Part shown: piece by piece, positions 14,301-55,405 of the stretch
Layout: every line of letters begins with the position of its first letter
Position numbering within the stretch: the first letter of the stretch is position 1
Assembly: GCA_964631145.1 (NCBI GenBank)
Contig: CAZVXT010000001.1
Span: forward strand, 127,151 to 191,150
Direction: 5' to 3'
DNA length: 64,000 nt
Origin: an uncultured Candidatus Saccharibacteria bacterium
GTDB lineage: Bacteria; Patescibacteriota; Doudnabacteria; UBA920
Made by a program: the position numbers and the translations under genes
Notes under the pieces: generated by a model
The model's database searches: none
Seen by the model: the letters and a program-made list of their open reading frames with translations, nothing else
Told to the model about the DNA's origin: nothing

Positions 14301-17300
14301 AAGCTCTGCTTTAGACCTAAATGGGTATACGTTGGGAACTGCGGAACCACTCACTTTAAGCGGAGCTTTAGCTACAGGAGCTCTGCAAAACACTTCTAGT
14401 ACCGCGGTTACTTATAGTGGATTGATTACTTTAGGTGCTGCTAGTACTATAATTTCTAACTACGGTGATATTAATATTTCTAATGGTGGTACTATTACAG
14501 GTGCAACATTTGGTTTAACTATTGGTGGTGCGGGTAATGGAACATTATCTAGTATATTAGGAACCACTAGTGGAACTTTAACAAAAAATGGTCTTGGTGT
14601 GTGGACAGTCTCCGGTTCCAGTACTTATACAGGGTTAACAACCATTAGTGCTGGAACTCTAAGGTTGGGTTCAGCAGGTGGTGCAACCAATACTCCTTTG
14701 GGTACAACAGGTGGTGCTACTTCAATAACTAGTGGTGCAATTTTGGATTTAAATGGATTTACATTAGGAACTGCTGAGGCTCTTACTATTAACGGTACCG
14801 GTATCGCAAGTATCGGAGCGCTTATTACAAGCTCCGGAAGCGCTACTTCTTATAGCGGTGCCATTACTATGGGTGCTGCTTCGCGTGTAGCTAATTACGG
14901 TAGTGGTGAATTTACCATAACTGGTGCGATATCTGGAAACTTTGCATTAACTACTGTAACTGTAGGTGGAATAACTCAATCTTCTGGTAGTGTTTGGTCT
15001 GGTACTGGGGCTTTGGTAAAAGAAGGATCTGGTGTATTAACTTTAGCTGGTCAGAATTCGATGACCGGTGCAATGACTGTAAGCACAGGAACCTTAAGGC
15101 TTGGTGCTAATGGCGGAGTTACAAATACACCATTGGGTACTATAGCGGGTGGAGTTACGGTATCGGCAGGTGCGGTACTAGATTTATCAACTTTTACAGT
15201 AGGCGGTGCTTCAACTTGGGAACCTTTAACTTTAAACGGTAGTGGTTTATTAAACGGTGGGGCATTGATAAGTAATTCTTCAACAGGTAGTAGCTTTGCA
15301 ACAATAGCCCAGACTAACTCTCGCATTGTTAATAATGGTGCTGGGACATTAACTATTACTGGTGCTGTAACAGGTGCTTCAACATTTTGGGTTGGTGGTT
15401 CTGGAAATACAGCCATTTCTGGTGCACTTAATACAGCTGGTTTGTTATTAACTAAATACGGTTCTGGGACATTAACTCTTAGCAGTGCTGTAAATATAAA
15501 CACTTCTTTGGTTCGTATTAATGCTGGTACTTTGGCTTACGCTGTGGCAGATGCGCTTTCAACCCCGGCTGTAACTGTAGCCGGAGGTACGTTAAATTTA
15601 AACGGATTTAATGAAACAAATATCGGAGCTATCACATTAATTGATGGTAGTATAGTTAACACTGGTGCAGCCGCTACACTAACTTCTACAGCTACATATA
15701 CTTTAGAAAACGGCACAATAAGCGCTGCCCTTGGTGGTACTGTTGTTGCTGCTATTGCAAAAAATACTGCCGGCAGAGTTATACTGTCTGGTGACAATTC
15801 GTTCAGCGGTGCGTCTGCTACTATTGCGGTGAATGCAGGGTATCTTAATTTGCGCCATAACAATGCTTTAGGGGCGGCTGCCAGTGCTAATACGACTACA
15901 ATTTCTGGTGGAGCAACCGTGGAATTAGAAAACAATATCACTATTCCAAGTGTTAAAGCATTTACTGTTAACGGCACTGGTGTTGCAAAATCAGGTGCAA
16001 TCAGAAACGTTAGTGGTACCAATACTATTTCTGCAAATATTACTTTAGGTTCAACCAATGTTCGTATTAACTCTGATAGTGGCACTTTAACAATTCCAAC
16101 TATATCAGGAAATACCTTTAATGTAATTTTAGGAGGTTCTGGTGATACTACAGTTACAGGCGCTATCGGTACTACTAGTGGTTCTGTAACAAAAGATGGT
16201 TCTGGGACCTCTACATTATCTGGTACTAATACTTACACAGGAAGCACTACTATTATTTTAGGAACTATTGCAGCAAATAGTTCTGCATCAATCGGTAATG
16301 GTAGTTCTACTAATACTTTAATTTTTAATGGAGGAACCTTAAAAGCTACTGGTACTATTACGTCTCTTGCGACTAGAGCAGTAAGTTTATATGGCAATGG
16401 AACAATTGACACCAATGGAAATAGTGTTAGCATAGCTGGTACAGTTGGATCTATCGGTGGACTTACAAAGAGTGGTCTTGGTACATTAACTCTCACTGGC
16501 GTTACTGTAATTGGAGGGGACTTAAATATTTCTGCTGGTACTTTTGTAGCACCAACTTCGCTAACATTAAATGGAAATTTGAGTAATAGCGGTACATTTA
16601 CCCATAGCAGTGGAACTGTAACTATTACACCTACAACACCATCTAATACTATTAGTATTACGGGAAGTTCTGGTATTACATTTAATAACCTGACTAATAC
16701 CACACCGGGGTCAACTATTAAATTCCAAAACGGTAATACATATGCATTTAGTGGAACCTTAACTTTAACGGGAACGGAAACTGCTCCTATATGGTTAAGC
16801 AGTGTGTCTCCTGGATCTCAATGGAATGTAACTTTAGCCACTACAGCACTGACCTGGGTTGCTGTCCAAGATTCTAATTGCAGTGGTGGACAATCCATTA
16901 CTGCAGGAAATCAAACTATCCTTGATCAAGGTAATAATACCGGGTCTTGTTGGTTGTTTATTAGCCGTAGTTCTGGCGGCGGTGGTGGACCAAGTGAGGG
17001 CGGTCCTGGTGCTGGTGGTAACAGCGGTGGTAATGGAGGTAGTGGTAACGGTAATAGTGGTAGTGGAGGTAATGTTCAGGCTACAGCTACTGCAACTTTA
17101 CAAAGCGGTGCGGTAAATAATGTAATTTTAGGAGTTGGTGGCAGTGGATATACTGATATTCCATTAGTATGTTTCAGCGGTGGTTCTCCTAGCGTAGATG
17201 GAGTTGTAGTCGCAATTATATCTGGTGGGGCAGTAACAGGATTTAATTTAATCTCAGGGGGTAGCGGATATGGATCCATACCTTTAGTAATTATTGCAGC

Positions 17301-17382
17301 TCCTGGAACAAGTGGTGGTACATGTGGAAGCAGTGTTGGCGGAGGCGGAGCTGGAGGTGGAGGCGGCGGAGCGGCACCATAA
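8380..17382 (+). CDS. Giant (3000 aa) secreted protein built of autotransporter-associated beta-strand repeats (PATR/TIGR02601-like), with a Gly-rich low-complexity C-terminus
   Basis: Signal/TM anchor 'LLYVGVFIVASLWFLGSA'. Dozens of 'GTLTLSGxNTYTGxTTIxxGTLxLG' repeats. ~280-aa internal segmental duplication. C-terminal 'GGGGGPSEGGPGAGGNSGGNGG...GGGGAGGGGGGAAP'. Confidence 0.85.
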   Translation: MTKIKIKLNYQNYIKALLYVGVFIVASLWFLGSAQKTFAATRTWTGITSNLWSVASNWGGTAPVTGDDLVFPSGASNLSNVNDLTENTIINSITFTGSGYTISGNKFILGAGVAGITDSVSSGGNTLSLDIRLDSTRDFYVTNSTEALTISGRIDGVGGINKEGLGTLILSGSNTYGGTTKINTGVINARTNTALGTIAAGTEVVGGAALELQNSISISYEALTLRGYGVSGGGALRNVGNNNTFGGLITLTSAGGTEISSDSGTLTITGGITGAFPLVFDGAGNITFSTTPIATAAGIVTKNGLGTVTYNFPNTYTGLTTVNAGTLAYGIDNAILSGAVTVTGGTLNIGTFSDMVGTVTLGTLDLANGTITGSTGILSSATWTVYNGTISAIIAGDGGALTKSTSGTVTLTRANQYTGATTISLGVLKIQDSNALGLIDGITTVTAGATLQVDGDGLSIPEYITFSGAGHLYYGAILNSTGNNTLTGLLTMGATAMIKSNIGTTLTVDGKGLLASGVPLYIGGAGDITFTSTAPIYGTTASLIKNDSGVLRIQSFSNYTGATTINRGTLELSSAGALPSSAITVNSGGVFTIDNSSISALNRMSETAAFTMNGGRFNFIGSATNSTSESTGALTLSSGHNIITITPGSGGSTTMTFASLSRTAGATALFRGTNFGSTPAANVSTLMFTTAPTLTGASGSAGTTTVSVIKGVFGDGYLNGNGSDMVTYNVGNTNGVRLLNGAGNSGEYATTLTTNANVKLTADVVASTASINSLILNGFSITNPGSAATLTIASASLSGNVLINSATSISGSNTTIGITTLELDILATANGTISAVVGTAVTGSMTLSGTGNITLSAASAYTGTTTINNATLTYGASNVLSSGGVTVNGGTLDIGANSDTVGAVILQNGVITGGVGILTGTSYSFREGTVSAIIAGAVTVTVVATNAASDAVVTMTRNNTYTGATAISSGILKLGGAGDGTNSPLGTIAAGTTIANVAALDLNGFTLSTAEAITSMNGLGYGFGSTVSAGNSNMGALMNGSGSSVSYSGAITLAAASRINADYGSLTISSAISGAFGLTVGGFSDSTFSGVIGTGTGTITKDGIGVLTLSNSNTYTGVTTISVGTVKLGTAGGATNTPLGTTAGATTVALGARLDLAGFTLGAAEPLTLNGVGYGLGDFASGALINSSIASVTYSGLLTLGSASTIKADSGNISLSNAGTITGATFALTLGGVGTGTVSSIIGTTTGTVTKIDTGTWTLAGVNTYTGATNVNLGTLKYGVNDAAGGGPLGTAAAGTSVFSGAVLDFNGFSTVTLAEVLTINGRGIGNGGAIVNSAGGLKSQLGGVVLGSDSRISISSGTLTFNGGVTGAFALYVGGAGNVTFTTGVLAMGAGSLVKQGAGTVTATGTHTYTGVTRIDAGTFAYGSNVTVLAGTNLTVAGGVFDMAASTDTIGTVTLIDGTIQNGTLTATTSYTFEKGTVSAVLAGTTLPMTKNTNNTLTLTAANTNTGTLTINAGSVVFSGSGSATAITGLTLNLGSTLTLDNSTTAVASRLPDALAVTMNGANFNFIGNTAAASSETAGALTLSSGHNVVTITPGAGGSTTMTFASFARTAGATVLFRGTSLGATPAANVSTLLFTTSTGILTGAAGAANSTTVSVIKGAFGDSSLSGNGSDMVTYNTGNTNGLRLLNGAGFSGEYATNLATLNSNVKLSADAAATTQSINSLILNGFSITNPGTAQTLTLASASLAGNILMNSATNIAGANATIGITTLELDILATANGTVSAVVGTAVAGSLVLSGSGNVTFSAANAYTGTTFINNATLTYGASNVLSSGGVTMVSGTYNLNGNSDTIGALVVNAARIDSGAGTLTFSGSFTSTANNNVTTIVLGNLALGGAGTFNIGNGLMDNDVVISAVISGATTLTKSTGAGVLLLSGSNTYTGLTTVSAGTIRLGATGGATNTPLGTTAAGTTVSGASSALDLNGYTLGTAEPLTLSGALATGALQNTSSTAVTYSGLITLGAASTIISNYGDINISNGGTITGATFGLTIGGAGNGTLSSILGTTSGTLTKNGLGVWTVSGSSTYTGLTTISAGTLRLGSAGGATNTPLGTTGGATSITSGAILDLNGFTLGTAEALTINGTGIASIGALITSSGSATSYSGAITMGAASRVANYGSGEFTITGAISGNFALTTVTVGGITQSSGSVWSGTGALVKEGSGVLTLAGQNSMTGAMTVSTGTLRLGANGGVTNTPLGTIAGGVTVSAGAVLDLSTFTVGGASTWEPLTLNGSGLLNGGALISNSSTGSSFATIAQTNSRIVNNGAGTLTITGAVTGASTFWVGGSGNTAISGALNTAGLLLTKYGSGTLTLSSAVNINTSLVRINAGTLAYAVADALSTPAVTVAGGTLNLNGFNETNIGAITLIDGSIVNTGAAATLTSTATYTLENGTISAALGGTVVAAIAKNTAGRVILSGDNSFSGASATIAVNAGYLNLRHNNALGAAASANTTTISGGATVELENNITIPSVKAFTVNGTGVAKSGAIRNVSGTNTISANITLGSTNVRINSDSGTLTIPTISGNTFNVILGGSGDTTVTGAIGTTSGSVTKDGSGTSTLSGTNTYTGSTTIILGTIAANSSASIGNGSSTNTLIFNGGTLKATGTITSLATRAVSLYGNGTIDTNGNSVSIAGTVGSIGGLTKSGLGTLTLTGVTVIGGDLNISAGTFVAPTSLTLNGNLSNSGTFTHSSGTVTITPTTPSNTISITGSSGITFNNLTNTTPGSTIKFQNGNTYAFSGTLTLTGTETAPIWLSSVSPGSQWNVTLATTALTWVAVQDSNCSGGQSITAGNQTILDQGNNTGSCWLFISRSSGGGGGPSEGGPGAGGNSGGNGGSGNGNSGSGGNVQATATATLQSGAVNNVILGVGGSGYTDIPLVCFSGGSPSVDGVVVAIISGGAVTGFNLISGGSGYGSIPLVIIAAPGTSGGTCGSSVGGGGAGGGGGGAAP

Positions 17383-45783: not shown

Positions 45784-46028
45784 AAGGATTCCTTTCTTAT
45801 TGGAATTACTGAATATAGTATTTTCCAAATCCTTATCTCTATAAAAATAGAGAATATTAATTAAATGTTTACGGAACTTTTATAGCATAACATTGTTAGC
45901 TTCAAGAAAATGTAAATTTCCTTTAAAAATCCTATAAATTTCTTTAATTTTAACTAATTTTTATAGTTTTGTCTAGTATTGACTTAGATTAAAAAATATT
46001 GTATGCTGACAAAAAATATGGAGGAAAT

Positions 46029-46553
46029 ATGACCAAAAATCCAGGTAAGCATATGTTTAATATGCTATTGCAAAATAGCGGTCCACGATATGATCATGAC
46101 GCATTAGATTTTATGAAAAAACTTTATCCTGTAATTCCTGAAAATAAATTAATTCCTTATAAGGTAATTGCTAATTTAGAAGCTAATGTTTTCAAATTAA
46201 CTGTTATGGACCATTGGTTGTTAGTTATTTTTTTGTTTAATAAAGAAAAAGCCAAAACCCTTATTGATAGTAGAGTTATTTTGTATTCAAACTCCGCTGA
46301 TCAAGTTTTGATCAATGATACCTATCGGGGCTTGTTGCCTCGGCAATTATTAGGCACTGATTATAAAAATGTTAAAAATTCGCAATTTGAATCAATCAGA
46401 AGTAATATGAATAAAATAATAGATAACATTGCCAGCTTGGCAGTATCAGATCCGGTTGATCTGTTGCATGACTTATATTTGCTTCCAAGACCTAAATGGC
46501 AATCTGTTGGATTTTTTATTACTAGAGCAAAAATAATGCAAATTTATTGTTAA
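46029..46553 (+). CDS. Hypothetical protein
   Basis: GGAGGA SD before the ATG at 46029. Terminator AGACCCTC-ctaagaaa-GAGGGGTTTTTATTT downstream. Confidence 0.5.
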   Translation: MTKNPGKHMFNMLLQNSGPRYDHDALDFMKKLYPVIPENKLIPYKVIANLEANVFKLTVMDHWLLVIFLFNKEKAKTLIDSRVILYSNSADQVLINDTYRGLLPRQLLGTDYKNVKNSQFESIRSNMNKIIDNIASLAVSDPVDLLHDLYLLPRPKWQSVGFFITRAKIMQIYC

Positions 46554-46689
46554 ATAATAGACCCTCCTAAGAAAGAGGGGTTTTTATTTGTCTTATTTTT
46601 TTAAAAATCCACGTGCTAGATTTTTTAAAAAAGTATATAATATTAACAAATCCATATAGGATTTTAATTTTTTTGGAGGAAATATTAGT

Positions 46690-47085
46690 ATGCAATCAGT
46701 TAGTAAAGTAACCGATATAAATTTGCCAAAATCTATGGCAAGTTCGATTGTTACCCTAAAGAATAATAGTGGAAGAGGTTTTGCTAAAGATTTAATTTTA
46801 TGGGTTGTTAATAGTTTTGAGAATCCAGAAAATATTAAACGTATGATCGAAGAAAGAATATTTTTTTCTAAAGCCAATGCTATATGTTTAAGACGAGATA
46901 GCGGGGTTGAGCTTTCTTTGGCTAATCTTATAGATATGGTTAAAAATGCTAAGAAGAAATTGCGAAGAGGGGTTTATTATCTTAAAGAAAGTTGCTTTAA
47001 ATTAATTGTCGAAAATGCACATGAAGGTGCAAATAGAGTAGTTTTGAAACGTGGTGCATTACGCAGAGTTTATCAAAAGTTTTAA
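46690..47085 (+). CDS. Hypothetical protein (131 aa)
   Basis: TGGAGGAAAT SD. Followed by the terminator AAACGCAGG-aaaatat-CCTGCGT + T7. Confidence 0.5.
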   Translation: MQSVSKVTDINLPKSMASSIVTLKNNSGRGFAKDLILWVVNSFENPENIKRMIEERIFFSKANAICLRRDSGVELSLANLIDMVKNAKKKLRRGVYYLKESCFKLIVENAHEGANRVVLKRGALRRVYQKF

Positions 47086-47128
47086 ACTTTTCTAAATAAA
47101 AACGCAGGAAAATATCCTGCGTATTTTT

Positions 47129-48214
47129 TTATCTATTAAAATGAAAATGAACCACATCGCCGTCTTGCATAACATACTCTTTGCCTTCCATACGTAACCA
47201 ACCCTTTTCTTTTGCTTGCACATAACCGCCAGCTTCTAGAAGTTTATCGTAGCCAATTACTTCGGCACGAATAAACCCTTTTTCAAAGTCTGTATGAATT
47301 ACTCCCGCAGCTCCAGGAGCTTTTGTCCCTGCTGGGCAAGTCCATGCTTTGCTTTCCATGGGTCCTGCAGTAATAAAAGTAATTAAGCCTAGCGTTTGAT
47401 AAGCTGCTTTGATGATTTTGTCCAAACCGCTTTCGGACATACCTATCTCTTGCAAATAAGAGGTTCTGTCCTCATCTTCTAATTCTGATAACTCGCTTTC
47501 CAGCTGGGCGTCTATAATTAAAGCGTTGCTCGGCATTGGGTCTGGAACATTGCTATATGTTTTTGCGCTCATGTCGTAGCTGCTATTAAAAGCATACAAA
47601 AATGGTTTTGTCGTTAGGAGTTGAATATCCTTAGTGGCAGACTTTTCTTCATCACTTAAGTTTACTGTGTTTGCCATTTGACCTGCTTCTAAAGCAGCTT
47701 TATATTTTTCCAGCACTGTCTGCTTAATTTTTGCAATACGGTCCCCAGACTTTACTAGCTTGCTATTAGATTCTAAACGCTTGTCTACATTTTGCAGATC
47801 GGCAAGTTGTAGTTCTATGGCAATGGTTTCCATATCTCGTTTTGCATCTACAGATCCATTTACATGAATAATATCGTCATTATTAAAGACGCGCGTGACT
47901 TCTAAAATTGCATCAACTTCACGAATATGTGATAAGAACTGATTTCCCAAACCTTCACCTTTATGGGCACCGCTAACAAGCCCAGCTATATCAACAAATT
48001 CAATGCTTGTCGGTACGATTTTTGCGCTTTTTTCTTGCACTGCTAACTTAGCAAGCCTATCATCAGGTACAGGAACAACGCCAACATTAGGGTCGATGGT
48101 TGCAAAAGGGTAGTTAGCTGCTTCAACTTGAGATTTGGTTATTGCATTAAATAAAGTTGATTTTCCTACATTTGGTAAACCAACGATTCCGATTGTCTGT
48201 TTTGAACCCGACAT
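47129..48214 (-). CDS. ychF: Ribosome-binding ATPase YchF (Obg family)
   Basis: 'GIVGLPNVGKSTLFNAIT' G1 motif. C-terminal TGS domain 'GFIRAEVI'. 361 aa. Confidence 0.9.
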   Translation of the reverse strand: MSGSKQTIGIVGLPNVGKSTLFNAITKSQVEAANYPFATIDPNVGVVPVPDDRLAKLAVQEKSAKIVPTSIEFVDIAGLVSGAHKGEGLGNQFLSHIREVDAILEVTRVFNNDDIIHVNGSVDAKRDMETIAIELQLADLQNVDKRLESNSKLVKSGDRIAKIKQTVLEKYKAALEAGQMANTVNLSDEEKSATKDIQLLTTKPFLYAFNSSYDMSAKTYSNVPDPMPSNALIIDAQLESELSELEDEDRTSYLQEIGMSESGLDKIIKAAYQTLGLITFITAGPMESKAWTCPAGTKAPGAAGVIHTDFEKGFIRAEVIGYDKLLEAGGYVQAKEKGWLRMEGKEYVMQDGDVVHFHFNR

Positions 48215-49796
48215 AATTTGAATTAGTTAATGGTAAGTATCCTGTGACTTGCAGCTGATTTTTATCGCTTACAACCTTTTCAACAGTATTGAGTATTATT
48301 GCCCGTTTAGGTTCAAATTTCAAATCCTGTAAGGTCTTTTTAGCTTTTTCGGCAAATGCTTTAATGTCACGTTGGCTGGGTGCTTCCAAGAGCGTTTGGT
48401 TAGCTTGGTCGGTAGTGTTTGCGACTTGTGCTTCAAGTTTAGTGATTTTATCTCGAAGGGGGATAGTATATTCTTTAAGTTGCTCTAAAGTAAATGCTCC
48501 AGCTCCGTAACCTTTGTTATATCGTTCAATCTGACCGTTTAATTTACTGATTTCCTTTTTGGTAGCTTCAACATCTACCAAAGTAGATTTTGCTTTGATT
48601 TGTCGGTTCTTGAGCCAGCGTTCAACCTGTTCGGCTAATAACTTGGGAGAGCTCATCAAGCCAGAAACCTTTTTCCATACCAGTTCATCAGCAACTCTTG
48701 CGTTGATACCTCTTTCTTCACATTTAGGCGGCAAAGGGAAACTTAATGTTCTGTCAGTGCAGCGGTAATATAGGTTTGGCTTATTATAATAGCCTTCACC
48801 CATCCGCTTTCTACCGCATACGCAATCAATTTTCCCAGACAGTAAATACTGATTTTTCTTATTGCGTTTACACAGAGCAAAGTTTGTCTTTAGCTGTTGG
48901 CCTGCTTTTTCAAAAACTTTTGGTTCAATAATTGCAGGAATGGGTATTGTTATCCATTCTTCGGTAGGTCGTAACCTACGACTGGTCTTTTTCTGCTTTT
49001 TATACTTTTCGTTTTTGAGCGGTCTTTCTGGAACAACAGCGTAAGAAGCTCCATAATGGGCTTCGCCAATATAACCCTTGTGTCGCAGCATAGTGCTTAA
49101 GGTGCTGGTGCTCCATACGCCTCTTTTGCTGTTACGTGGCCTAATACCAAGCTGTTGTAGCTTCCTGACTATGGCTCGCAGTGTCATTCCGTCATTAGCT
49201 ACCCAAGAGAATATCATTTTTACAACTCGTGCTTCCTCTGGATTGATTTCATAATAACCGTGTTGCTTATCCTGTTTCGGGATGTAGTTATAACCGTAAA
49301 GGGGATGCGTTGTAAGAATATGTCCTTCTTTTACCTTTCGCAGTTTGCCAAGTCTAAATCTTTCGGCAATTTTCGCACGCTCATATTCAGCAAACAAACC
49401 TCTAACACCGTGCAGAATTTTATCTTCGCTATTTTTTGGTGCAGGAACAGTAACAAAGATAACTTCCACTCCAGCTTCCCGCAACTCATCCATTACTAAT
49501 TCTTGGTAGGAATAACGGCGAGCCAATCGGTCAGGGTCGTAGATAAGCACGGCTTCCCAAACTCTGTCTTTGCTTTTCGCATCCAGTCGAAGCCTATCCA
49601 GTGCTGGGCGTTCCAAAATATCGCCGCTCCAGTCATCATCCTTATACTCCTGAACTATCTGCCAATTATTTTTTCCAGCCAGCTCACTAAAAGTCATTAG
49701 CTGGTTTTTTATGGTGCGTTCTTCTTCGTCAGGATTTTCAGATACACGAGCGTATGTAGCGATTAGCTTAAATTGTTTGTCTGCTTCTGGTGTCAT
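48147..49796 (-). CDS. Large serine recombinase (resolvase catalytic domain + recombinase domain + zinc ribbon + coiled coil)
   Basis: 'YARVSENPDEEERTIKNQL' (catalytic Ser region). 'VLIYDPDRLARR'. Cys cluster 'CVCGRK...YYRCTD'. 549 aa. Confidence 0.85.
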   Translation of the reverse strand: MTPEADKQFKLIATYARVSENPDEEERTIKNQLMTFSELAGKNNWQIVQEYKDDDWSGDILERPALDRLRLDAKSKDRVWEAVLIYDPDRLARRYSYQELVMDELREAGVEVIFVTVPAPKNSEDKILHGVRGLFAEYERAKIAERFRLGKLRKVKEGHILTTHPLYGYNYIPKQDKQHGYYEINPEEARVVKMIFSWVANDGMTLRAIVRKLQQLGIRPRNSKRGVWSTSTLSTMLRHKGYIGEAHYGASYAVVPERPLKNEKYKKQKKTSRRLRPTEEWITIPIPAIIEPKVFEKAGQQLKTNFALCKRNKKNQYLLSGKIDCVCGRKRMGEGYYNKPNLYYRCTDRTLSFPLPPKCEERGINARVADELVWKKVSGLMSSPKLLAEQVERWLKNRQIKAKSTLVDVEATKKEISKLNGQIERYNKGYGAGAFTLEQLKEYTIPLRDKITKLEAQVANTTDQANQTLLEAPSQRDIKAFAEKAKKTLQDLKFEPKRAIILNTVEKVVSDKNQLQVTGYLPLTNSNYVGFKTDNRNRWFTKCRKINFI

Positions 49797-49972
49797 TTAA
49801 TTTTATGCTTTTCTAAAAATTTACTAACTTCGGTTTTTGGAATGCGAAGCAGAGAAGTCTTGCCATCACCAAGCTTATAACCTTTAAGCGAGCCACTTTT
49901 AAGCCAGCGCAATATGGTGCGCTTGTGAACTCTTAATTCTTTTGCTACTTCTTCCAATGTGAGAAATTCCAT
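49793..49972 (-). CDS. Excisionase/MerR-like HTH DNA-binding protein (59 aa), translationally coupled to the recombinase (ATGA overlap)
   Basis: 'MEFLTLEEVAKELRVHKRTILRWLKSGSLKGYKLG...' is a classic Xis/HTH_17 domain. Below the 60-aa ORF-track cutoff; read directly from the sequence. Confidence 0.65.
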   Translation of the reverse strand: MEFLTLEEVAKELRVHKRTILRWLKSGSLKGYKLGDGKTSLLRIPKTEVSKFLEKHKIK

Positions 49973-50117
49973 AAGTTTATTATAGTCTTAATTGTCATCA
50001 GTTGTCAAATTGCCGTATTTCAGTAATGTTTCTTCAAATAAAAGGTCAAAGGCACTTTCAATCAGCCCATTGGTGTCTTCTATGGGCTGGTATCTCACTG
50101 AAGGCTGACTTCGTTTT

Positions 50118-51284
50118 TTAGTCTTGTTTGAAGTCATACCTTTCGAATTTTTCTAATGCTGATTGTATTTCGCTGATAGCGAGCGATGGTGGCGTTCCTC
50201 GTAAGGTAGTAGCTGCGACCTTTATTTTAGGTGATAGCCGTGTCCAGCTTTTGCTTGTCCAATTTTTCTCAATTTTATCTCTGGTTTTCCTAACCCCATA
50301 TTGGTTGATAAGTGTATAGAGACCAAGACTGGCGAGTGCGGCATTAAGTGAGTGCGCCTGCTTCTTCTTTTTGGAAGTTAATCCAGCAATCATTGCATCA
50401 AACACTTCTTCAGTTGGTCGTTCCAGCTTAAAGGCGAGCTGACTGGCTGGTGATTTGATTATTTCTGACCACTTGGTAAGTAGGGTTTTTTGCCAGAGTT
50501 CTTTGTTGAATAGCTCCTCAAAAGCAGCTTCCTTAATTTTTTCGCCTTTTATTTTCGAGAGGAAAGCAGTCAGGCTTTGCTGCTTCGCCAGTCTGATTTC
50601 GAAACGTAGAATTTCAGGCTTTTGTTCATCGTTCCAAATGTCTGTAAACATTCGTTCCAGATAAAGTTTGTCTTTATCAATGGCCTTCGCTTTAGGGGTT
50701 TGAATGTCTTTGAGTTTGTCGTAAAAAATGATATTGGCAGAGGAAGCATAAAAATATAAAGCTTGGCCATTATTGCCGTAGTGCCTCACATTCACGTCTT
50801 TTGTTTTGCCGATGTCTGCTTTGTAAAGCGTTGAAATAGCATCCTGCACGGTCATTGGAGCAGGTAGCACGATATTCTTACCAAAGTGTGCTTTAACAAC
50901 TATCGCTTTGCGAAGTAATGCCTTGAAAATTTTAATTCCCATCTGGGAAAGGCGAGCTTGGAGTTCTTCTATAACCCTGTCAAAGTCCGTGTCGTTGTAT
51001 TCTTGAACGCTATTGCCATTTAACAGTTTGGGAACAGAAAATTCAATGTGCAGGTCGTATCTCACCTTAAAATCCTCAAAACGCTGATATACGGTCAGCC
51101 TTGGTAAGTAAATACCAGCCTGTTTGTCTGCGAACGTGGCGTTCTGGGTGAACTTTTGGAACTTATGGCGTCCGTAGTTAAAATCAGTAGTTTTGTCGTT
51201 GATAATTAACGCAGGAGTAAAAAGGTTGGGGTTTCCAACCATAAAGTTCGGATATGTAATTCTGATAGCAACTGTATCCAGCAT
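50118..51284 (-). CDS. Rep_trans-family rolling-circle initiator / MobT-like relaxase
   Basis: 'QALYFYASSANIIFYDK' fits the Rep_trans 'lYiGsrxSxxxxRiYDK' signature. N-terminal 'MLDTVAIRITYP'. ~390 aa. Confidence 0.5.
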   Translation of the reverse strand: MLDTVAIRITYPNFMVGNPNLFTPALIINDKTTDFNYGRHKFQKFTQNATFADKQAGIYLPRLTVYQRFEDFKVRYDLHIEFSVPKLLNGNSVQEYNDTDFDRVIEELQARLSQMGIKIFKALLRKAIVVKAHFGKNIVLPAPMTVQDAISTLYKADIGKTKDVNVRHYGNNGQALYFYASSANIIFYDKLKDIQTPKAKAIDKDKLYLERMFTDIWNDEQKPEILRFEIRLAKQQSLTAFLSKIKGEKIKEAAFEELFNKELWQKTLLTKWSEIIKSPASQLAFKLERPTEEVFDAMIAGLTSKKKKQAHSLNAALASLGLYTLINQYGVRKTRDKIEKNWTSKSWTRLSPKIKVAATTLRGTPPSLAISEIQSALEKFERYDFKQD

Positions 51285-51314
51285 AACGCCTGCGTTTGGC
51301 TGCCTTTCGGCTGC

Positions 51315-51602
51315 TTATTTTTGTCTTGGCGTCCGTTTTTTGTTGTCCCGAAATTTCGGGGAATACTCCAAGACGTTATGCGGATACTGGTTTGCAATCA
51401 TTTGCGGAACTAATATCCAGCCTCGACCTTTACATTCATCACACGTCAAATAATCACTGCCGACTACTGTGAAGTCGTCAATTCTTTCACTGTGCCAAAT
51501 GATATTTTTTGGCACTTCAATTTTGCCAGTGCAGTCGCACAGTAAACACTTGTATTTAACCGACGGCACTGAACAGTGATGGCATTGTTTTGATTGGTTC
51601 AT
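51315..51602 (-). CDS. Small zinc-ribbon protein
   Basis: 'CHHCS...CLLCDC...CDECKGRG' Cys pairs. Confidence 0.45.
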   Translation of the reverse strand: MNQSKQCHHCSVPSVKYKCLLCDCTGKIEVPKNIIWHSERIDDFTVVGSDYLTCDECKGRGWILVPQMIANQYPHNVLEYSPKFRDNKKRTPRQK

Positions 51603-51611
51603 AAAATTTCC

Positions 51612-51944
51612 TTATTCGCTGTATAGTCGGTTTTTAAGCATTTTGAGGTTATCGAAAAACGACCTCGCTTTAACTTCGAGGCGGTCAGCCCAATAATCGT
51701 CTACAACCCGTTCTATCCCTGCTTGTCGCAGGAAAGCAAACTGGACTTTACGTGAGTTAGTTTTATCAAGCAAGGCAAGCTGAAAGCCAGCTGAAACCAG
51801 TGCTGCGGCTGCACCTAAATCGAACGTGTATAAGTAATTGCGGTAATCTTCGGCATAACTTTGGGTGTCTGCCTGACCCTTTGGTAATTTTCTGGTCATT
51901 GATTTTTTGTTAATGGTAATGTTTTGGCGAAAGAAAAAAGCCAA
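51612..51944 (-). CDS. Hypothetical protein (110 aa)
   Basis: ORF within the element, same strand as its neighbours. Confidence 0.45.
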   Translation of the reverse strand: MAFFFRQNITINKKSMTRKLPKGQADTQSYAEDYRNYLYTFDLGAAAALVSAGFQLALLDKTNSRKVQFAFLRQAGIERVVDDYWADRLEVKARSFFDNLKMLKNRLYSE

Positions 51945-52047
51945 AGCGTATTGTGCTTTGACTTTATCCTTTTATTATTCAATTATGGACGGAAAGAATG
52001 TGCGATTATTGTGGTTGTATTATGGGCTGAATGTGCTTCAGGTGTGC

Positions 52048-52503
52048 TTAAACTATCAGTTTGTATCCGTGTTGCTTGATATTTTCTATACAGTCTCGGT
52101 TCTTGGCCTGTCCTTTCGGCAAAATACCCAATATCTCTTTAATGTTTCTAATAATAAAACCAAGTTTACGTTTGGCGTCTTTTGAGGGATTTTCTCCCAA
52201 CAAATCGGTATAAGTCGCTAAATACTCATCACTGCTCATTAACGTGTGTAGGATTGCAAATTCTTGGGTCTGTGGGTTAATACTCGCTTTCACTTCGTTG
52301 AATTGCACAGAACCTGCGCTTTCGTTAAGTGTTAAAAGCCCGTGCTTTAATTGGACGCTTAAGACTTTATTTTTTGGCGTTGGCAAAGCCTCAACTTTAG
52401 GCTGTGGTTGCGCAGGAGATGCACTGCCTAAAACTTTTTCTTTGTATTGACTATACCGCTTTTCGAAATCCTGCGGGAATTGGATTGTGAGAATACTGCT
52501 CAT
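52048..52503 (-). CDS. Hypothetical protein (151 aa)
   Basis: ORF within the element. Confidence 0.45.
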   Translation of the reverse strand: MSSILTIQFPQDFEKRYSQYKEKVLGSASPAQPQPKVEALPTPKNKVLSVQLKHGLLTLNESAGSVQFNEVKASINPQTQEFAILHTLMSSDEYLATYTDLLGENPSKDAKRKLGFIIRNIKEILGILPKGQAKNRDCIENIKQHGYKLIV

Positions 52504-52507
52504 ACAA

Positions 52508-53134
52508 TTACCTCGCTGCTCCTATAATTCTAAATTTTGAAATAAGTCCTGCTTGCTCCAGCAGCTTTAATATGTTTTCCAGCTCATACCAGTCTGTAAT
52601 GCCGCATTCTCTCATCCAAGAATGATATTTTTGGGTCGATATTTTAGTCTCGCCCGTGTTTGGAGTTAGAGCCCATTCTTCTTTGAGCTTTTCAAGTATG
52701 AATAACTTTTTCTGGTCTGCCGCAGACAGGTTAGTCTTTTTTGGTTCAGGCGGCTTATTGGCCGACTGACTTAATACTTGGACTTGCTTGGTAAGAAATT
52801 TTATGTGGTCAGCATTATATTCTTGAGTAAAAATACTTTCGTATAGAGCGTAGACTTCCTCGAATCTTGGAAGTATAGGCTCAACCTTGTAAGCATTGGG
52901 TCTGGTATGCACTCCATTTAGCTGTTGTATGCTTCTGAAGGTAGCCAATAAGGATGTTTGGTATTCTAATGCTTTAAGGCTGCCCGTTTTAGCAATCATC
53001 CTAACAGCTCGTTCTCTGACATCAGCGTTAGTATCAATAATAATCCACTGGTCATTAGGAGTAGCGAGCTGTTCTTGCTGGATTTCGCATAAGATTTGCC
53101 AAGCAGTTTTGTGTAATTCTTCAATAGGGGACAT
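52508..53134 (-). CDS. Hypothetical protein (208 aa)
   Basis: ORF within the element, 4-nt spacing to the downstream gene. Confidence 0.45.
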   Translation of the reverse strand: MSPIEELHKTAWQILCEIQQEQLATPNDQWIIIDTNADVRERAVRMIAKTGSLKALEYQTSLLATFRSIQQLNGVHTRPNAYKVEPILPRFEEVYALYESIFTQEYNADHIKFLTKQVQVLSQSANKPPEPKKTNLSAADQKKLFILEKLKEEWALTPNTGETKISTQKYHSWMRECGITDWYELENILKLLEQAGLISKFRIIGAAR

Positions 53135-53219
53135 CGTAATAATATGGTAATTTAGCTTAATTTTAAGCTATTTACGCTCGAACATCAATCTTGTGGGCAG
53201 ATACGAGGATTAACCGATT

Positions 53220-53246
53220 ATGGTATTATTCCTAATAATAGGATAA
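53220..53246 (+). promoter_or_regulatory. Candidate erm leader peptide uORF (MVLFLIIG) / translational attenuator
   Basis: GAGGA SD 10 nt upstream. The 8-codon ORF ends 3 nt before the erm ATG. The weak erm SD (AGGATA) lies inside the uORF. Local hairpins ATTATT-cct-AATAAT and AGCTTAA-ttt-TTAAGCT. Confidence 0.35.
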
Positions 53247-53249
53247 CCA

Positions 53250-54131
53250 ATGAACTTACAACATTCCCAAAATTTTTTACGAGACCCCAAGCTCGTTCAG
53301 GAGTTGATACAGAAGTCGTCTTTGCGTAAAGAGGATACGGTTCTTGAAATTGGGGCAGGAAAGGGGATTATTACCGAGTTGTTAGTCAAGTCGGTTAAAT
53401 CAGTAATTGCCATAGAACCTGACCCAAAACTTTATGGTTACTTGCAGGACAAGTTCAAAGAGTATGGCAATGTTCGCATAGAAAAAGCTGACTTTCTTAA
53501 ATCCGATTTGCCCAAAGAACCATATAAGATTTTTTCCAACATTCCCTTTAACATTACTGCCGATATAATTAAGAAGTTGCTGGGAGCACAAAATTCACCC
53601 GAAGATAGCTATTTAATCGTGCAGGAAGAAGCAGCAAAAAAGTATGCTGGGAAGCCATATGCCAGAGAAACATTATTGTCCATTCTATATAAGCCGTGGT
53701 TTAGTTTCAGTGTTGTTCACAAATTTAGACGCAACGATTTTACTCCCACACCACAAGTAAATTCAGTATTATTACGAATAGAAAAATTGAAAAAGCCGCT
53801 TATTCCACAACACACTGCGGCTTTGTTCAAAGATTTTGTTGCGTTCGGTTTTACGTCGGTAAGACCAAATCTTAAAAAGGGTTACAAAAATGTTTTTGGA
53901 CACGTCCAGTTTCTGAAACTGGCTGATGAGCTTAATTTTAATCCTGATGCCAAGCCCACAGACCTCGACTTTGAGCAGTGGTTGGGTATATTTAATTACT
54001 TTGTCGTTGGGGTGGAAGAAAGAAGGCAAAAACAAGTTGTGGGTGCAGTAGCAAAGTTGGCCGAGCAGCAGAAATCTTTAGATAAAATCCATAGAACCCG
54101 CACAGCCAGAAATTGGCAGAATAAAAAATAA
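53250..54131 (+). CDS. erm: Erm-family 23S rRNA (adenine-N6)-methyltransferase (putative MLSB resistance determinant)
   Basis: 'HSQNFL', 'LEIGAGKGIIT', 'PYKIFSNIPFNITADIIKKLL', 'SYLIVQEEAAKKY', 'TPTPQVNSVLLRI', 'FEQWLGIFNYF'. Each has a close counterpart in ErmC/ErmB, less so in KsgA. Confidence 0.8.
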   Translation: MNLQHSQNFLRDPKLVQELIQKSSLRKEDTVLEIGAGKGIITELLVKSVKSVIAIEPDPKLYGYLQDKFKEYGNVRIEKADFLKSDLPKEPYKIFSNIPFNITADIIKKLLGAQNSPEDSYLIVQEEAAKKYAGKPYARETLLSILYKPWFSFSVVHKFRRNDFTPTPQVNSVLLRIEKLKKPLIPQHTAALFKDFVAFGFTSVRPNLKKGYKNVFGHVQFLKLADELNFNPDAKPTDLDFEQWLGIFNYFVVGVEERRQKQVVGAVAKLAEQQKSLDKIHRTRTARNWQNKK

Positions 54132-54138
54132 GCCCATC

Positions 54139-55074
54139 TTACGATAGGGCTAATTCCAAAGTTCTTTTTGTCGTAAGTTCAAGGTCTTTCCAGTTGCGCT
54201 TGAAAGCGTTGTAGCTCATTCCATTAAGACCAATACTAATTTCGTAACAGCGCAAACGTTCTTCAAAATTAGGCACTTCCAAGCCTATTTTTTTGTAATG
54301 ACTTCGGGCTTCTTCTACCCAGTCTATATTTTGCATTGCGGAATACCAAGGCGACCACACGATAAGTCCAGCTAACTCATACAGGAAATCGCCATACATC
54401 GCATTACCCCAATCAATGACAGCATTGATTTTCCCATCTTGAACCAGCACATTGTAATGCAAAAGGTCAGTGTGAAGTAGATGACGTTCTTTGGGACACT
54501 TGTCTACGAGAGATTTTAAGACATCAAAAGCCTTGTTAAAAGGCGCATCGCCCATTGGCGAGTTTTTTAGTGAAGCACGCCAACCATATGTTCTGCTGGT
54601 CATTGGGTCGTTCCAAACATCTAATAGACATTCTTGCCAAGTTGGATATGGAGCAACTTTTTCGGTATTCCAATTACCATATCCAGAGGTAGAGCTTATG
54701 TCAGTCATCCTCATAGCATCAAGCATCTGAAAAACAGCAGGAACTATTTGAACCATTTGTGGCTCGTCTAAACCATCCAGCATATTACCAAAAGCTCTTT
54801 CCGAAATAGCGAAACTTCGACCCAAAGCTTGCCCAATTTCCGTTACCTGCGGTATTGGCAAGTGTGATACAGCATAAGCGGCGGCAATTTGGTCTTTCTT
54901 AAAATCATCGCTATATAAGCCAAACCGAATAACGTAGTCCTTTCCTAAATGACGAAATGAAAAAGCTTGAGACCATACACCTTGCCCTAAATGTGCTATA
55001 TCACTCACTGTTTGTTTGAAGCGAGTGTGTAAAAAGTTTTCTATCTCTGTAATTTCTAAAGGTTTTAATTCCAT
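54139..55074 (-). CDS. Aminoglycoside phosphotransferase (APH) family kinase (hygromycin/APH(4)-like motif pattern)
   Basis: 'HTDLLHYNVLVQDGKINAVIDWGNAMYGDFLYELAGLIVW' matches the APH catalytic loop and IDW...GD..YE.A segment. Confidence 0.7.
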   Translation of the reverse strand: MELKPLEITEIENFLHTRFKQTVSDIAHLGQGVWSQAFSFRHLGKDYVIRFGLYSDDFKKDQIAAAYAVSHLPIPQVTEIGQALGRSFAISERAFGNMLDGLDEPQMVQIVPAVFQMLDAMRMTDISSTSGYGNWNTEKVAPYPTWQECLLDVWNDPMTSRTYGWRASLKNSPMGDAPFNKAFDVLKSLVDKCPKERHLLHTDLLHYNVLVQDGKINAVIDWGNAMYGDFLYELAGLIVWSPWYSAMQNIDWVEEARSHYKKIGLEVPNFEERLRCYEISIGLNGMSYNAFKRNWKDLELTTKRTLELALS

Positions 55075-55405
55075 ATTTGAATTATCGGCTTATACTGGCA
55101 CAGAGCGGACAATCTGCCCAGTCTGCTTATTTCGTGCCACTATGCGCCGTCCATACTGCGGTGGCGGCAGTTTAATCGTAAAACTAAATGGTATGAGTTT
55201 GGCTGTTTCTTCAAGAATAGGATGTCTGGTTGTGTTCGCTCCATACCGATTTGAAATGACATAAAATTTAAATTTAAACTTTAATCATTCTACTTTACTT
55301 TTATATTAATATCAAGCCTAATATTGACACAATAAGTCAAAAGTAGTAAATTAGTAACACGTTCTATTAAATAGAGCGATATATTTTATGGAGGAAACTT
55401 TATTT

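What the first reader, a model, noticed from the sequence alone, without database searches (positions are those of the whole stretch)
48147..55260. Integrative mobilizable element carrying Erm + APH, inserted at the 5' end of ychF
A same-strand module of a large serine recombinase, an Xis-like HTH (ATGA-coupled), a Rep_trans/MobT-like initiator and four small ORFs is followed by a convergent gene pair. That pair has strong Erm (23S rRNA A2058 methyltransferase) and APH-kinase signatures. The block looks foreign in two ways: it is GC-richer by eye, and none of its genes has the AGGAGG SD that almost every host gene shows. Macrolide and aminoglycoside resistance cargo on a serine-recombinase IME in a genome of this style would be a notable HGT and AMR observation.
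Basis: partly seen in the sequence, partly recalled or inferred. Interest (0 to 1): 0.75.

Follow-up and report, generated by a model that had tools for sequence, protein, structure and literature searches.

The report
Mobile resistance-gene element in Saccharibacteria ychF
A 7,057-bp self-integrating DNA element carrying an Erm-type ribosome methylase gene and a hygromycin-kinase-like gene sits in the start of the ychF gene of a Saccharibacteria (CPR) genome. Mismatch-free copies in at least four or five quite different host genomes show that it is spreading now.

Summary
The finding is real and its core reading is right. Window 48189-55247 is a 7,057-bp integrative element. It encodes a large serine recombinase (LSR), an ATGA-coupled excisionase-type HTH, a Rep_trans/G2P-fold rolling-circle initiator, five small backbone proteins, an Erm 23S rRNA methyltransferase and an APH kinase closest to hygromycin-B kinase APH(4)-Ia.

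Comparison with 30 fetched loci fixes the crossover at a GG in ychF codon 6. The same 7,059 bases occur with zero mismatches in hosts whose ychF is only about 70% identical in DNA. An empty ychF site and a joined attP contig were both found.

- attP lies inside the recombinase gene, so integration replaces a conserved 51-aa tail.
- The element supplies a new ychF start (MSGSKQTIG in place of MSFQIG).
- The displaced ychF promoter now faces aph.

Relatives in Saccharibacteria, Doudnabacteria and other Patescibacteria keep the backbone and the ychF site but carry restriction-modification genes instead.

Not shown: resistance phenotypes, the APH substrate, and the transfer route; "mobilizable" is unproven. 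The Shine-Dalgarno argument failed and the GC contrast is modest. This is a new variant of a known kind (serine-recombinase IME-like elements).

The parts
47129..48214 (-). ychF (361 aa). It is the target gene and is still intact. Codons 1-8 and the GG of codon 9 (48189-48214) come from the element, giving the N-terminus MSGSKQTIG in place of the native MSFQIG.
   Evidence: TIGR00092 YchF 434 bits. Junction alignment. Native starts in 84 of 120 related YchF clusters.
48170..48210 (-). ychF-proximal junction (P arm + B' arm). On the minus strand it reads ...GGTTCAAAACAGACAATC GG | AATCGTTGGTTTACC. The crossover GG is at 48190-48189.
   Evidence: The element side is constant. The host side varies in L001, L003, L014, L015 and L016 straight after the GG.
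48147..49796 (-). Large serine recombinase, integrated form (549 aa). Residues 1-536 are encoded by the element. The last 13 aa (NRWFTKCRKINFI) are an out-of-frame read into ychF.
   Evidence: PF00239, PF07508 and Zn ribbon. phrog_95 integrase 293 bits. The C-terminal end differs by host: 541, 544 and 549 aa.
49793..49972 (-). Excisionase-family HTH protein (59 aa), coupled to the recombinase by ATGA. It is the candidate recombination directionality factor.
   Evidence: PF12728 50.6 bits, TIGR01764 51.3 bits. ATGA overlap.
49979..50008 (-). Perfect sigma-70 consensus promoter (TTGACA-18-TATAAT) just upstream of xis and rec. It is the probable source of read-through transcription into the rebuilt ychF.
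   Evidence: 12 of 12 consensus matches. Function is inferred.
49988..50137 (-). 49-aa backbone protein of unknown function, conserved in relatives.
   Evidence: tblastn 50-100% identity in L014-L025. No family hit.
50118..51284 (-). 388-aa rolling-circle initiator with the Rep_trans / phage G2P fold. Y188 (IFYDK), E229 and R231 are invariant.
51315..51602 (-). 95-aa Cys-rich (zinc-ribbon-like) backbone protein.
   Evidence: Conserved in relatives at 77-100%. Only a faint Anti-TRAP hit.
51612..51944 (-). DUF5659 backbone protein. The likely true start is MTRKL at 51899.
   Evidence: PF18903 39.8 bits. Start conserved in relatives.
51937..51965 (-). Terminator-like hairpin followed by a T-run, between p151 and the DUF5659 gene. 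The structure is kept in relatives but the sequence is not.
52048..53134 (-). p208 (52508-53134) and p151 (52048-52503). Together they look like a split form of the single 540-764-aa protein at this position in relatives, which has a p208-like N-terminus and an OmpR-type winged-helix C-terminus.
   Evidence: Weak Trans_reg_C hit. p208 matches the N-terminus of the L017 540-aa protein. ORF comparison.
53250..54131 (+). erm: Erm-family 23S rRNA adenine N6-methyltransferase (293 aa). It would be a new class, at most 44% identical to any named Erm.
   Evidence: NF000499 250.1 bits against cut-off 212; ksgA 172.4 bits. PDB order ErmE > ErmC' > ErmB > Dim1/KsgA. Plasmid Erm(42)/Erm(53) at 41-44%.
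54139..55074 (-). aph: APH-family kinase (311 aa), closest to hygromycin-B 4-O-kinase APH(4)-Ia.
   Evidence: PF01636 58 bits. APH(4)-Ia 162 bits, E = 1.6e-46, and the only PDB family hit. 34% identity to plasmid aph(4)-Ia.
55090..55245 (-). 3' 'exon' of the recombinase gene. It encodes a 51-aa tail (YGANTTRHPILEETAKLIPFSFTIKLPPPQYGRRIVARNKQTGQIVRSVPV*). The tail joins the recombinase ORF only in the circular form, giving a 587-aa protein.
   Evidence: Conserved at protein level in L015, L016, L020 and L021. Read as one ORF across attP in contig L028.
55226..55266 (-). Promoter-proximal junction (B arm + P' arm). On the minus strand it reads ATGTCATTTCAAATC GG | TATGGAGCGAACACAACC. The crossover GG is at 55247-55246. 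The displaced native ychF start codon is at 55262.
   Evidence: The host side varies (ATGTCATTTAAAATCGG, ATGAGCTTTAAGATTGG and others) while the element side is constant.
55287..55315 (-). Promoter-like site of the host's ychF (TTGATA-17-TAGAAT). After integration it points into the recombinase tail segment and aph.
   Evidence: 10 of 12 consensus matches. Function is inferred.

Best explanation
Window 48189-55247 is an integrated copy of a 7,057-bp site-specific integrative element of Candidatus Saccharibacteria.

Integration. The element's large serine recombinase recombines attP with attB. attP lies inside the 3' end of the recombinase gene itself. attB lies at codons 1-13 of ychF. Strand exchange is at the GG of Gly codon 6.

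Consequences of integration:
- ychF is not destroyed. The P arm carries a substitute start and eight codons, so YchF begins MSGSKQTIG-IVGLPN instead of MSFQIG-IVGLPN. Its transcription probably comes from the consensus promoter upstream of xis-rec.
- The conserved 51-aa C-terminal tail of the recombinase is replaced by 5-13 host-dependent residues.
- The orphaned ychF promoter now faces aph.

Circular form. It probably arises by excision, helped by the co-translated excisionase-type HTH, or persists as an un-integrated replicon. It restores the 587-aa recombinase gene. The Rep_trans/G2P-fold initiator can then copy it by rolling-circle replication.

Cargo. The cargo slot lies between the regulator-like backbone genes and the P' end. 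Here it holds a convergent erm-aph pair. Erm is predicted to methylate 23S rRNA A2058 (MLSB resistance). The APH is predicted to phosphorylate a hygromycin-B-like aminoglycoside. Relatives carry restriction-modification genes or a reverse transcriptase in the same slot.

Shown: anatomy, junctions, empty site, attP junction, recent horizontal spread, family membership of the proteins.
Inferred: excision control, replication, transfer route (conjugative mobilisation or natural transformation), resistance phenotypes, promoter effects.
For: - Protein families.
- Junctions and the GG crossover, from host-variable against element-constant bases in the window, L001-L007, L014-L016, L020 and L021.
- The 7,059 bases have 0 mismatches in the window, L001, L003 and L005 (full length) and in L002, L004, L006, L007, L008, L010 and L014 (partial).
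- The ychF of the window, L001, L003 and L014 hosts is only 69-74% identical in DNA. TrpRS is 58% identical in protein.
- Empty site L029 has the same synteny, and the rebuilt attB translates to the same MSFQIGIVGLPNVGKSTLFN.
- 84 native against 30 element-type YchF starts among the 120 nearest clusters.
- attP junction with a continuous recombinase-tail ORF followed by aph, in metagenome contig L028.
- Tail conserved at protein level in diverged relatives.
- Relatives with the same backbone and the same ychF site but R-M or RT cargo.
- Promoters.
- No phage structural families, no IMG/VR, phage or plasmid match.
Against: - No experiment or read-level data shows excision of this exact copy. 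The attP contig is a 77-86% identical variant and could be a tandem copy rather than a circle.
- No origin (dso) or oriT was found, and the Rep has no direct Pfam hit.
- The integrated recombinase lacks a conserved tail, so it might be impaired for excision.
- Erm also just passes the KsgA cut-off (172.4 against 171).
- CPR methyltransferases expressed in E. coli gave no resistance in one preprint (10.64898/2026.07.13.738296).
- The APH is far below the APH(4)-Ia cut-off.
- The GC difference is modest and the SD contrast is not significant.
Confidence: 0.82

Rival explanations
1. It is a true integrative and mobilizable element. The Rep_trans-fold protein acts as a MobT-type relaxase at an oriT, and the excised circle is transferred as single-stranded DNA through the type IV secretion system of a co-resident conjugative element.
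For: Serine-recombinase IMEs with Rep_trans/MobT proteins are common in Firmicutes, and MobT can serve as both relaxase and replication initiator (PMC5704250). The element has the Rep_trans fold, is small and has no T4SS genes. It is identical in diverged hosts.
Against: No oriT, coupling protein or helper T4SS was seen in the window or in the fetched loci. Homologs hit phage G2P (PF05144, 12 of 45) more often than Rep_trans (4 of 45). No conjugative partner is known here for Patescibacteria.
Confidence: 0.3
2. The cargo is not antibiotic resistance. The 'Erm' is a KsgA-like or other rRNA methyltransferase serving ribosome biogenesis or self-protection, and the 'APH' is a small-molecule or protein kinase. 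The element then spreads for other reasons.
For: The KsgA model is also passed, marginally. Erm-like genes at 48-62% identity are widespread in Patescibacteria chromosomes without mobile-element context. CPR methyltransferases gave no resistance in E. coli. The APH scores 160 bits against a 725 cut-off.
Against: The Erm equivalog model is passed, 78 bits above KsgA. The three best PDB relatives are proven Erm enzymes. The full-length matches at 41-44% are to resistance genes Erm(42) and Erm(53). The erm-aph pair travels together on two very different backbones. The slot is a variable cargo slot otherwise filled with defence genes. The only solved relatives of the APH are hygromycin-B kinases.
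Confidence: 0.2
3. It is a degraded prophage or a filamentous-phage-like (inovirus) or satellite element, with a G2P-type replication protein and a serine integrase.
For: Homologs hit the inovirus G2P family PF05144. The recombinase hits the phage integrase family phrog_95. Two unnamed viral proteins match the Rep model at E = 7e-8.
Against: No morphogenesis ATPase, coat or other structural family was found. Six of eight backbone proteins have no PHROG hit. There are no relatives in IMG/VR or in 50,697 phage records. The small proteins are not coat-like: p49 is hydrophilic by inspection, and none gave a coat-protein family hit. No transmembrane prediction was run.
Confidence: 0.07

Closest known systems
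Serine-recombinase integrative and mobilizable elements of Firmicutes (Tn4451/Tn4453 with TnpX; streptococcal IMEs with Rep_trans/MobT), as reviewed in PMC5704250
   Same: A small (a few kb) integrated element with one large serine recombinase, junctions without long repeats, an RCR-initiator-type protein, no transfer apparatus of its own, and resistance cargo.
   Different: - The host phylum is Patescibacteria.
- The target is the 5' end of an almost universal gene, and that gene is rebuilt. The review says serine-recombinase IMEs disrupt dispensable genes.
- An excisionase-type HTH is coupled to the recombinase. The review notes that no RDF is known for such IMEs.
- attP lies inside the recombinase ORF.
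- The initiator is nearer to phage G2P.
- Mobilisation has not been shown.
SCCmec-type cassettes (CcrA/B/C large serine recombinases)
   Same: The best NCBIfam recombinase hits are CcrB and CcrC (101 and 74 bits). Both are site-specific insertions at the end of a conserved housekeeping gene, carry resistance cargo and spread between species.
   Different: The scores are far below the Ccr cut-offs (900). SCC inserts at the 3' end of rlmH, is much larger and has no Rep_trans initiator.
Erm(42) and Erm(53) macrolide-lincosamide resistance methyltransferases
   Same: Full-length alignment, including the C-terminal extension, at 41-44% identity. The Erm equivalog HMM is passed. The SAM motif LEIGAGKG and the NIPF motif are present in the sequence.
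   Different: It is below the 80% identity convention for an existing erm class (convention quoted from my own knowledge), so it would be a new class. No upstream leader peptide or attenuator is apparent in the 115-nt upstream region. Activity is untested.
APH(4)-Ia hygromycin-B 4-O-kinase
   Same: It is the only solved relative (E = 1.6e-46, residues 5-297). The catalytic HxDxxxxN and IDW..GD motifs align.
   Different: 34% identity, and 160 bits against a 725 cut-off. The substrate is unknown. Streptomyces plasmid phosphotransferases are equally close at 35-37%.
Rep_trans initiators (pT181 RepC/RepD, RepSTK1) and filamentous-phage gene II protein (PF05144)
   Different: 13% sequence identity, no direct HMM hit, an extra C-terminal helical domain, and an unknown origin.
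Integration-dependent immunity of mycobacteriophages (attP inside the repressor gene). Recalled from memory; not checked here.
   Same: attP lies inside a coding sequence, so the integrated and the free forms encode proteins with different C-termini.
   Different: In the phages the gene is the repressor and the integrase is a tyrosine recombinase. Here the gene is the serine recombinase itself, and a regulatory role is only a hypothesis.

Membership tests
Large serine recombinase (LSR) integrative element | N-terminal resolvase catalytic domain, recombinase domain and zinc-ribbon/coiled-coil domain | tested here: met
   PF00239 94.7 bits, PF07508 69.2 bits, Zn_ribbon_recom 23.8 bits (just under the 25.3 cut-off), and coiled-coil-type hits at residues 375-482. 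The RVS catalytic motif is visible in the sequence.
Large serine recombinase (LSR) integrative element | Site-specific insertion with a 2-bp crossover, no long terminal repeats, and distinct attP and attB | tested here: met
   The GG crossover is defined by host-variable against element-constant bases. No terminal repeats. Empty attB and joined attP were recovered.
Integrative and mobilizable element (IME) | Own integration/excision module and no complete conjugation apparatus | tested here: met
   LSR plus excisionase HTH. The 7,057 bp contain no T4SS or coupling-protein gene.
Integrative and mobilizable element (IME) | Relaxase and oriT that let a helper conjugative element transfer it | tested here: inconclusive
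   A Rep_trans-fold protein is present but could be a replication initiator only. No oriT or helper was identified.
Integrative and mobilizable element (IME) | Demonstrated horizontal movement | tested here: met
   0 mismatches over 7,059 bp in at least four ychF backgrounds that are 69-74% identical in DNA. The transfer mechanism was not tested.
Erm 23S rRNA A2058 methyltransferase | Score at or above the curated Erm equivalog cut-off, and above KsgA/RsmA | tested here: met
   NF000499 250.1 bits against 212. TIGR00755 ksgA 172.4 bits against 171. PDB ranking ErmE, ErmC', ErmB ahead of Dim1 and KsgA.
Erm 23S rRNA A2058 methyltransferase | Membership of an existing erm class (at least 80% amino-acid identity; convention quoted from my own knowledge) | tested here: not met
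   The best named relatives are at 41-44%. All class-specific NCBIfam models are far below cut-off.
Erm 23S rRNA A2058 methyltransferase | A2058 methylation and an MLSB resistance phenotype | not testable with these tools
   Needs expression and MIC or primer-extension assays.
APH(4) hygromycin-B kinase | Curated APH(4)-Ia model cut-off | tested here: not met
   159.8 bits against 725; 34% identity. It is an APH-family member (PF01636 58 bits against 23.2) and only 'APH(4)-like'.
APH(4) hygromycin-B kinase | Phosphorylation of hygromycin B or another aminoglycoside | not testable with these tools
   Needs an enzyme assay or MIC.
Rep_trans / G2P rolling-circle initiators | Pfam PF02486 or PF05144 match | tested here: inconclusive
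   The window protein has no hit. 12 of 45 homologs hit PF05144 (best E = 1.7e-10) and 4 of 45 hit PF02486.
Rep_trans / G2P rolling-circle initiators | Rep_trans fold | tested here: met
Rep_trans / G2P rolling-circle initiators | Catalytic tyrosine and nicking at a double-strand origin | tested here: inconclusive
   Y188 is invariant in 45 sequences. Its equivalence to the RepD catalytic Tyr was not checked by superposition, and no origin was found.
Prophage / inovirus | Virion or morphogenesis genes | tested here: not met
   No PHROG structural hit. No IMG/VR or phage-record relative.

The most novel reading that the evidence does not exclude
The element belongs to a large, old clade of serine-recombinase elements. 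They use the P-loop-coding 5' end of ychF as a near-universal landing site, and their attP lies inside the recombinase gene.

Integration therefore does three things at once:
- it swaps the recombinase's conserved C-terminal '(I/V)PFxFxIxL' tail for junk residues, which could act as a built-in sensor of the integrated state that tunes directionality;
- it rebuilds ychF with an element-encoded start;
- it hands the ychF promoter to the cargo.

Combined with rolling-circle copying and the natural competence of Saccharibacteria, this would be a conjugation-independent way of moving resistance and defence genes through the Candidate Phyla Radiation.
Probability: 0.25. Interest if true: 0.8.

Novelty: new variant of a known kind. 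Interest (0 to 1): 0.68.

Why it matters
- Mobile elements of the Candidate Phyla Radiation are barely described. Surveys of 'resistance genes' in CPR genomes (PMC8651080) gave no mobile context.
- This is a precisely delimited, currently spreading element with both attachment sites, an empty site and a joined form. It carries an Erm-family gene and an APH(4)-like gene between Saccharibacteria that differ at about the genus level.
- It gives a concrete, testable vehicle for gene flow in these episymbionts.
- It is a candidate integration tool: an LSR with a 40-bp site in a universal gene, for organisms that have only just become genetically tractable.
- It is a natural case in which integration edits the recombinase's own C-terminus.
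- If Erm and APH are active, Saccharibacteria may use them against macrolides and aminoglycosides made by Actinobacteria, which I recall, without checking here, to be their hosts. CPR bacteria would then count as a mobile resistance reservoir.

Tried and rejected
- Direct Pfam, NCBIfam and PHROG searches of the 388-aa protein found nothing. A profile search of PDB sequences also found nothing. The function came only from homolog scans and fold comparison.
- The search for an origin or oriT failed. Repeats inside the element looked like chance. The conserved hairpin upstream of the DUF5659 gene behaves like a terminator, with structure kept and sequence not.
- Phage reading rejected.
- Known plasmid reading rejected.
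- The BFVD fold search gave two unnamed viral hits that could not be interpreted.
The look-up of P0248, the 303-aa YchF call from the 654-kb NCBI contig, found no record.
- Host-flank protein look-ups gave only short contigs that break at the junction.
- Sample accessions could not be linked to any paper, so the environment is unknown.
- The literature search for APH(4) substrate-binding residues was unproductive, so no residue-level substrate test was made.
- I considered that the 96-98% BLAST blocks reaching into ychF meant ychF was part of the element. Sliding identity showed 100% inside the element and 57-82% in ychF, so this was rejected.
- The extra genes in L030 gave no informative resistance annotation.

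Full report
**1. What is there**

On the minus strand, in order of transcription:
- p208 (52508-53134) and p151 (52048-52503; weak OmpR-type winged helix);
- a DUF5659 protein (51612-51944);
- a 95-aa Cys-rich protein (51315-51602);
- a 388-aa protein (50118-51284);
- a 49-aa protein (49988-50137);
- a 59-aa excisionase-family HTH (49793-49972; PF12728, TIGR01764);
- a large serine recombinase (48147-49796; PF00239, PF07508 and a zinc ribbon), joined to the HTH gene by an ATGA overlap.

To the right lie erm on the plus strand (53250-54131) and aph on the minus strand (54139-55074). They are convergent and 7 nt apart.

**2. The resistance-type genes**

*Erm.* It scores 250.1 bits on NCBI's Erm equivalog model (cut-off 212). 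It scores 172.4 bits on KsgA, which just passes that model's 171 cut-off.
- Among solved structures the order is ErmE (110 bits), ErmC' (94), ErmB (92), and only then Dim1 and KsgA (about 80).
- Among 72,556 plasmids the best full-length matches are Erm(42)/Erm(53)-type resistance genes at 41-44% identity.
- Homologs at 48-62% identity are common in Patescibacteria, and PGAP names them Erm. At least one of these is chromosomal with no mobile-element genes nearby (L032).
- It is therefore an Erm-family enzyme of a new class. It is not a KsgA.

*APH.* It is an APH-family kinase (PF01636). Its only solved relatives are hygromycin-B 4-O-kinases (E = 1.6e-46). Identity is 34%, and the score is far below the APH(4)-Ia cut-off. 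'APH(4)-like, substrate unproven' is the honest label.

**3. The 388-aa protein**

It has no direct family hit. A homolog search found 282 relatives.
- Of 45 diverse relatives, 12 hit PF05144 (filamentous-phage G2P) and 4 hit PF02486 (Rep_trans).
- An AlphaFold2 model built on that alignment is confident (pLDDT 90.8).
- Y188, E229 and R231 are invariant.

**4. Boundaries, mobility, empty site and joined form**

*Exact copies.* The exact Erm protein occurs on 12 public contigs. Across window 48189-55247 these copies show zero mismatches. Full length: L001, L003, L005. Partial: L002, L004, L006, L007, L008, L010, L014.

*Diverged hosts.* The flanks fall to 57-82% identity. The ychF genes of four carriers are only 69-74% identical to each other. 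TrpRS is about 58% identical in protein.

*Junctions.* Aligning the junctions shows, on the minus strand:
- host ATG TCA TTT CAA ATY GG | TATGGAGCGAACAC (element) at the promoter side;
- element ...ACAGACAATC GG | (A/T)AT(C/A)GT... (host) at the ychF side.

The only bases common to every junction are the GG (55247-55246 and 48190-48189), as expected for the 2-bp crossover of a serine recombinase. The circular element is 7,057 bp.

*Empty site.* Joining the two host arms gives an attB that encodes MSFQIGIVGLPNVGKSTLFN. That is exactly the start of an uninterrupted ychF in the same gene neighbourhood in another Saccharibacteria genome (L029).

*Prevalence.* Of the 120 nearest YchF clusters, about 84 have the native start and 30 have an element-type start.

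*Joined form.* A metagenome scan for the predicted attP found contig L028. In it a related variant (77-86% identical) reads recombinase 3' end, attP, aph, erm without interruption.

*Graph breaks.* In one sample the assembly graph breaks exactly at both junctions.

**5.

(a) *attP is inside the recombinase gene.* In the joined form the ORF continues for 51 codons and ends 15 nt before aph, giving a 587-aa protein.
- The tail is conserved at protein level in diverged relatives.
- A similar '(I/V)PFxFxIxL' ending is seen in distant LSR homologs.
- In the integrated state the tail is replaced by 5-13 residues read out of frame from ychF (549, 544 and 541 aa in different hosts).

(b) *Every relative supplies a replacement ychF start.* The starts are MSGSKQTIG, MSNNSRSIG, MSSSKLSVG and others. 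The essential-looking gene stays intact.

(c) *Promoters.* A 12-of-12 consensus promoter sits just upstream of xis-rec, and could read through into ychF. The promoter-like site of the host's ychF now faces the tail segment and aph.

(d) *A wider ychF-targeting clade.* Among the 150 best recombinase cluster representatives (31-49% identity), at least 17 of the 125 full-length ones end in the out-of-frame P-loop peptide. Targeting the ychF 5' end is thus a trait of a large clade.

**6. Family and host**

A scan of one genome per GTDB species found 14 loci. Most are in Candidatus Saccharibacteria MAGs. Others are in Doudnabacteria, Minisyncoccia and unclassified Patescibacteria.
- Wherever the contig reaches that far, nine of the 14 loci show the recombinase abutting ychF, preceded by as much of the DUF5659-p95-Rep-p49-xis backbone as the contig holds.
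- The cargo differs: erm + aph (L015, L016); erm (L018); type I R-M-like genes (L020); type III R-M-like genes (L021); a reverse transcriptase plus type III R-M-like genes (L017).
- The erm-aph pair also occurs at 71-72% identity on a far more distant backbone at a different chromosomal site (L030; Rep 29% identical). The pair therefore moves as a module.
- Nothing matches in IMG/VR, INPHARED or PLSDB, and no phage structural family is present.

**7. What failed**

- The Shine-Dalgarno argument does not hold. 13 of 41 host ORFs have a GGAGG-type motif, against 0 of 8 in the element.
- GC is 0.406 against 0.360, and ychF is as GC-rich as the element.
- No origin or oriT was found.
- No paper describing this element was found. 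Surveys of CPR 'erm' hits exist but give no mobile context (PMC8651080). One preprint reports no resistance from CPR methyltransferases expressed in E. coli.

**8. Verdict**

This is a real, recently and repeatedly transferred integrative element of Saccharibacteria with Erm and APH(4)-like cargo. In function it resembles the serine-recombinase IMEs of Firmicutes. It differs in host phylum, in its target, in repairing the target gene, in carrying an excisionase-type partner, and in having attP inside the recombinase ORF. The transfer route and the resistance phenotypes remain to be tested.

Noticed in passing
Proteins P0361-P0510; in the window compare 48147-48188: Many distant LSR homologs (31-49% identity) end in the out-of-frame translation of the YchF P-loop region, for example ...NRNCRASKRRKIDAI and ...SRNCWSTQRWKINFI. 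Others end in a '(I/V)PFxFxIxL' tail. This points to a large recombinase clade that targets the ychF 5' end with attP inside its own gene.
   Followed up: partly
L030:4113-12665 (Logan SRR28148141 contig); also L031: The same convergent erm-aph pair (71-72% aa identity) sits on a distantly related backbone: a 517-aa LSR, an HTH_17 protein, a Rep homolog at 29% identity and a SpoVG-like protein. It is not at ychF but next to pilin-like genes, and it also carries a SAM methyltransferase and a second APH.
   Followed up: partly
window 45829-47128: A 1.3-kb low-GC (0.25-0.31) stretch holds two ORFs (45999-46553 and 46690-47085) with no Pfam hit and good GGAGG motifs. It lies between rpsF and ychF. 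In L001 and L029 these two genes lie close together (about 315 and 165 nt apart), so this may be a second small insertion.
   Followed up: partly
L017:184-7395: In one relative the cargo slot holds a 338-aa reverse transcriptase next to type III restriction-modification-like Mod and Res genes. L020 holds type I R-M-like genes and a proteasome-like protein.
   Followed up: no
L023 (CAZRJH010000022.1, 2,684 nt): This contig is binned in a 'Gammaproteobacteria' MAG, but it consists of the element's Rep-xis-rec end plus a Saccharibacteria-type ychF start identical to that of L015. It is probably a binning error rather than cross-phylum transfer.
   Followed up: no
L011:1, L005 (both from SRR12712864); window 55246 and 48165-55275: Logan unitigs from one sample stop exactly at the crossover dinucleotide or k-1 bases beyond it, at both junctions. 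The assembly graph therefore branches there, which suggests mixed occupied and empty sites, several hosts, or circular forms in that sample.
   Followed up: partly
window 13-7278 and 8380-17382: Two giant ORFs (2,421 and 3,000 aa) lie at the left end of the window. They were not examined.
   Followed up: no
window 49979-50008 (-): A 12-of-12 match to the sigma-70 consensus (TTGACA-18-TATAAT) lies inside the 3' end of the 49-aa ORF, immediately upstream of xis. It is the only perfect match in the 8.5 kb scanned.
   Followed up: no
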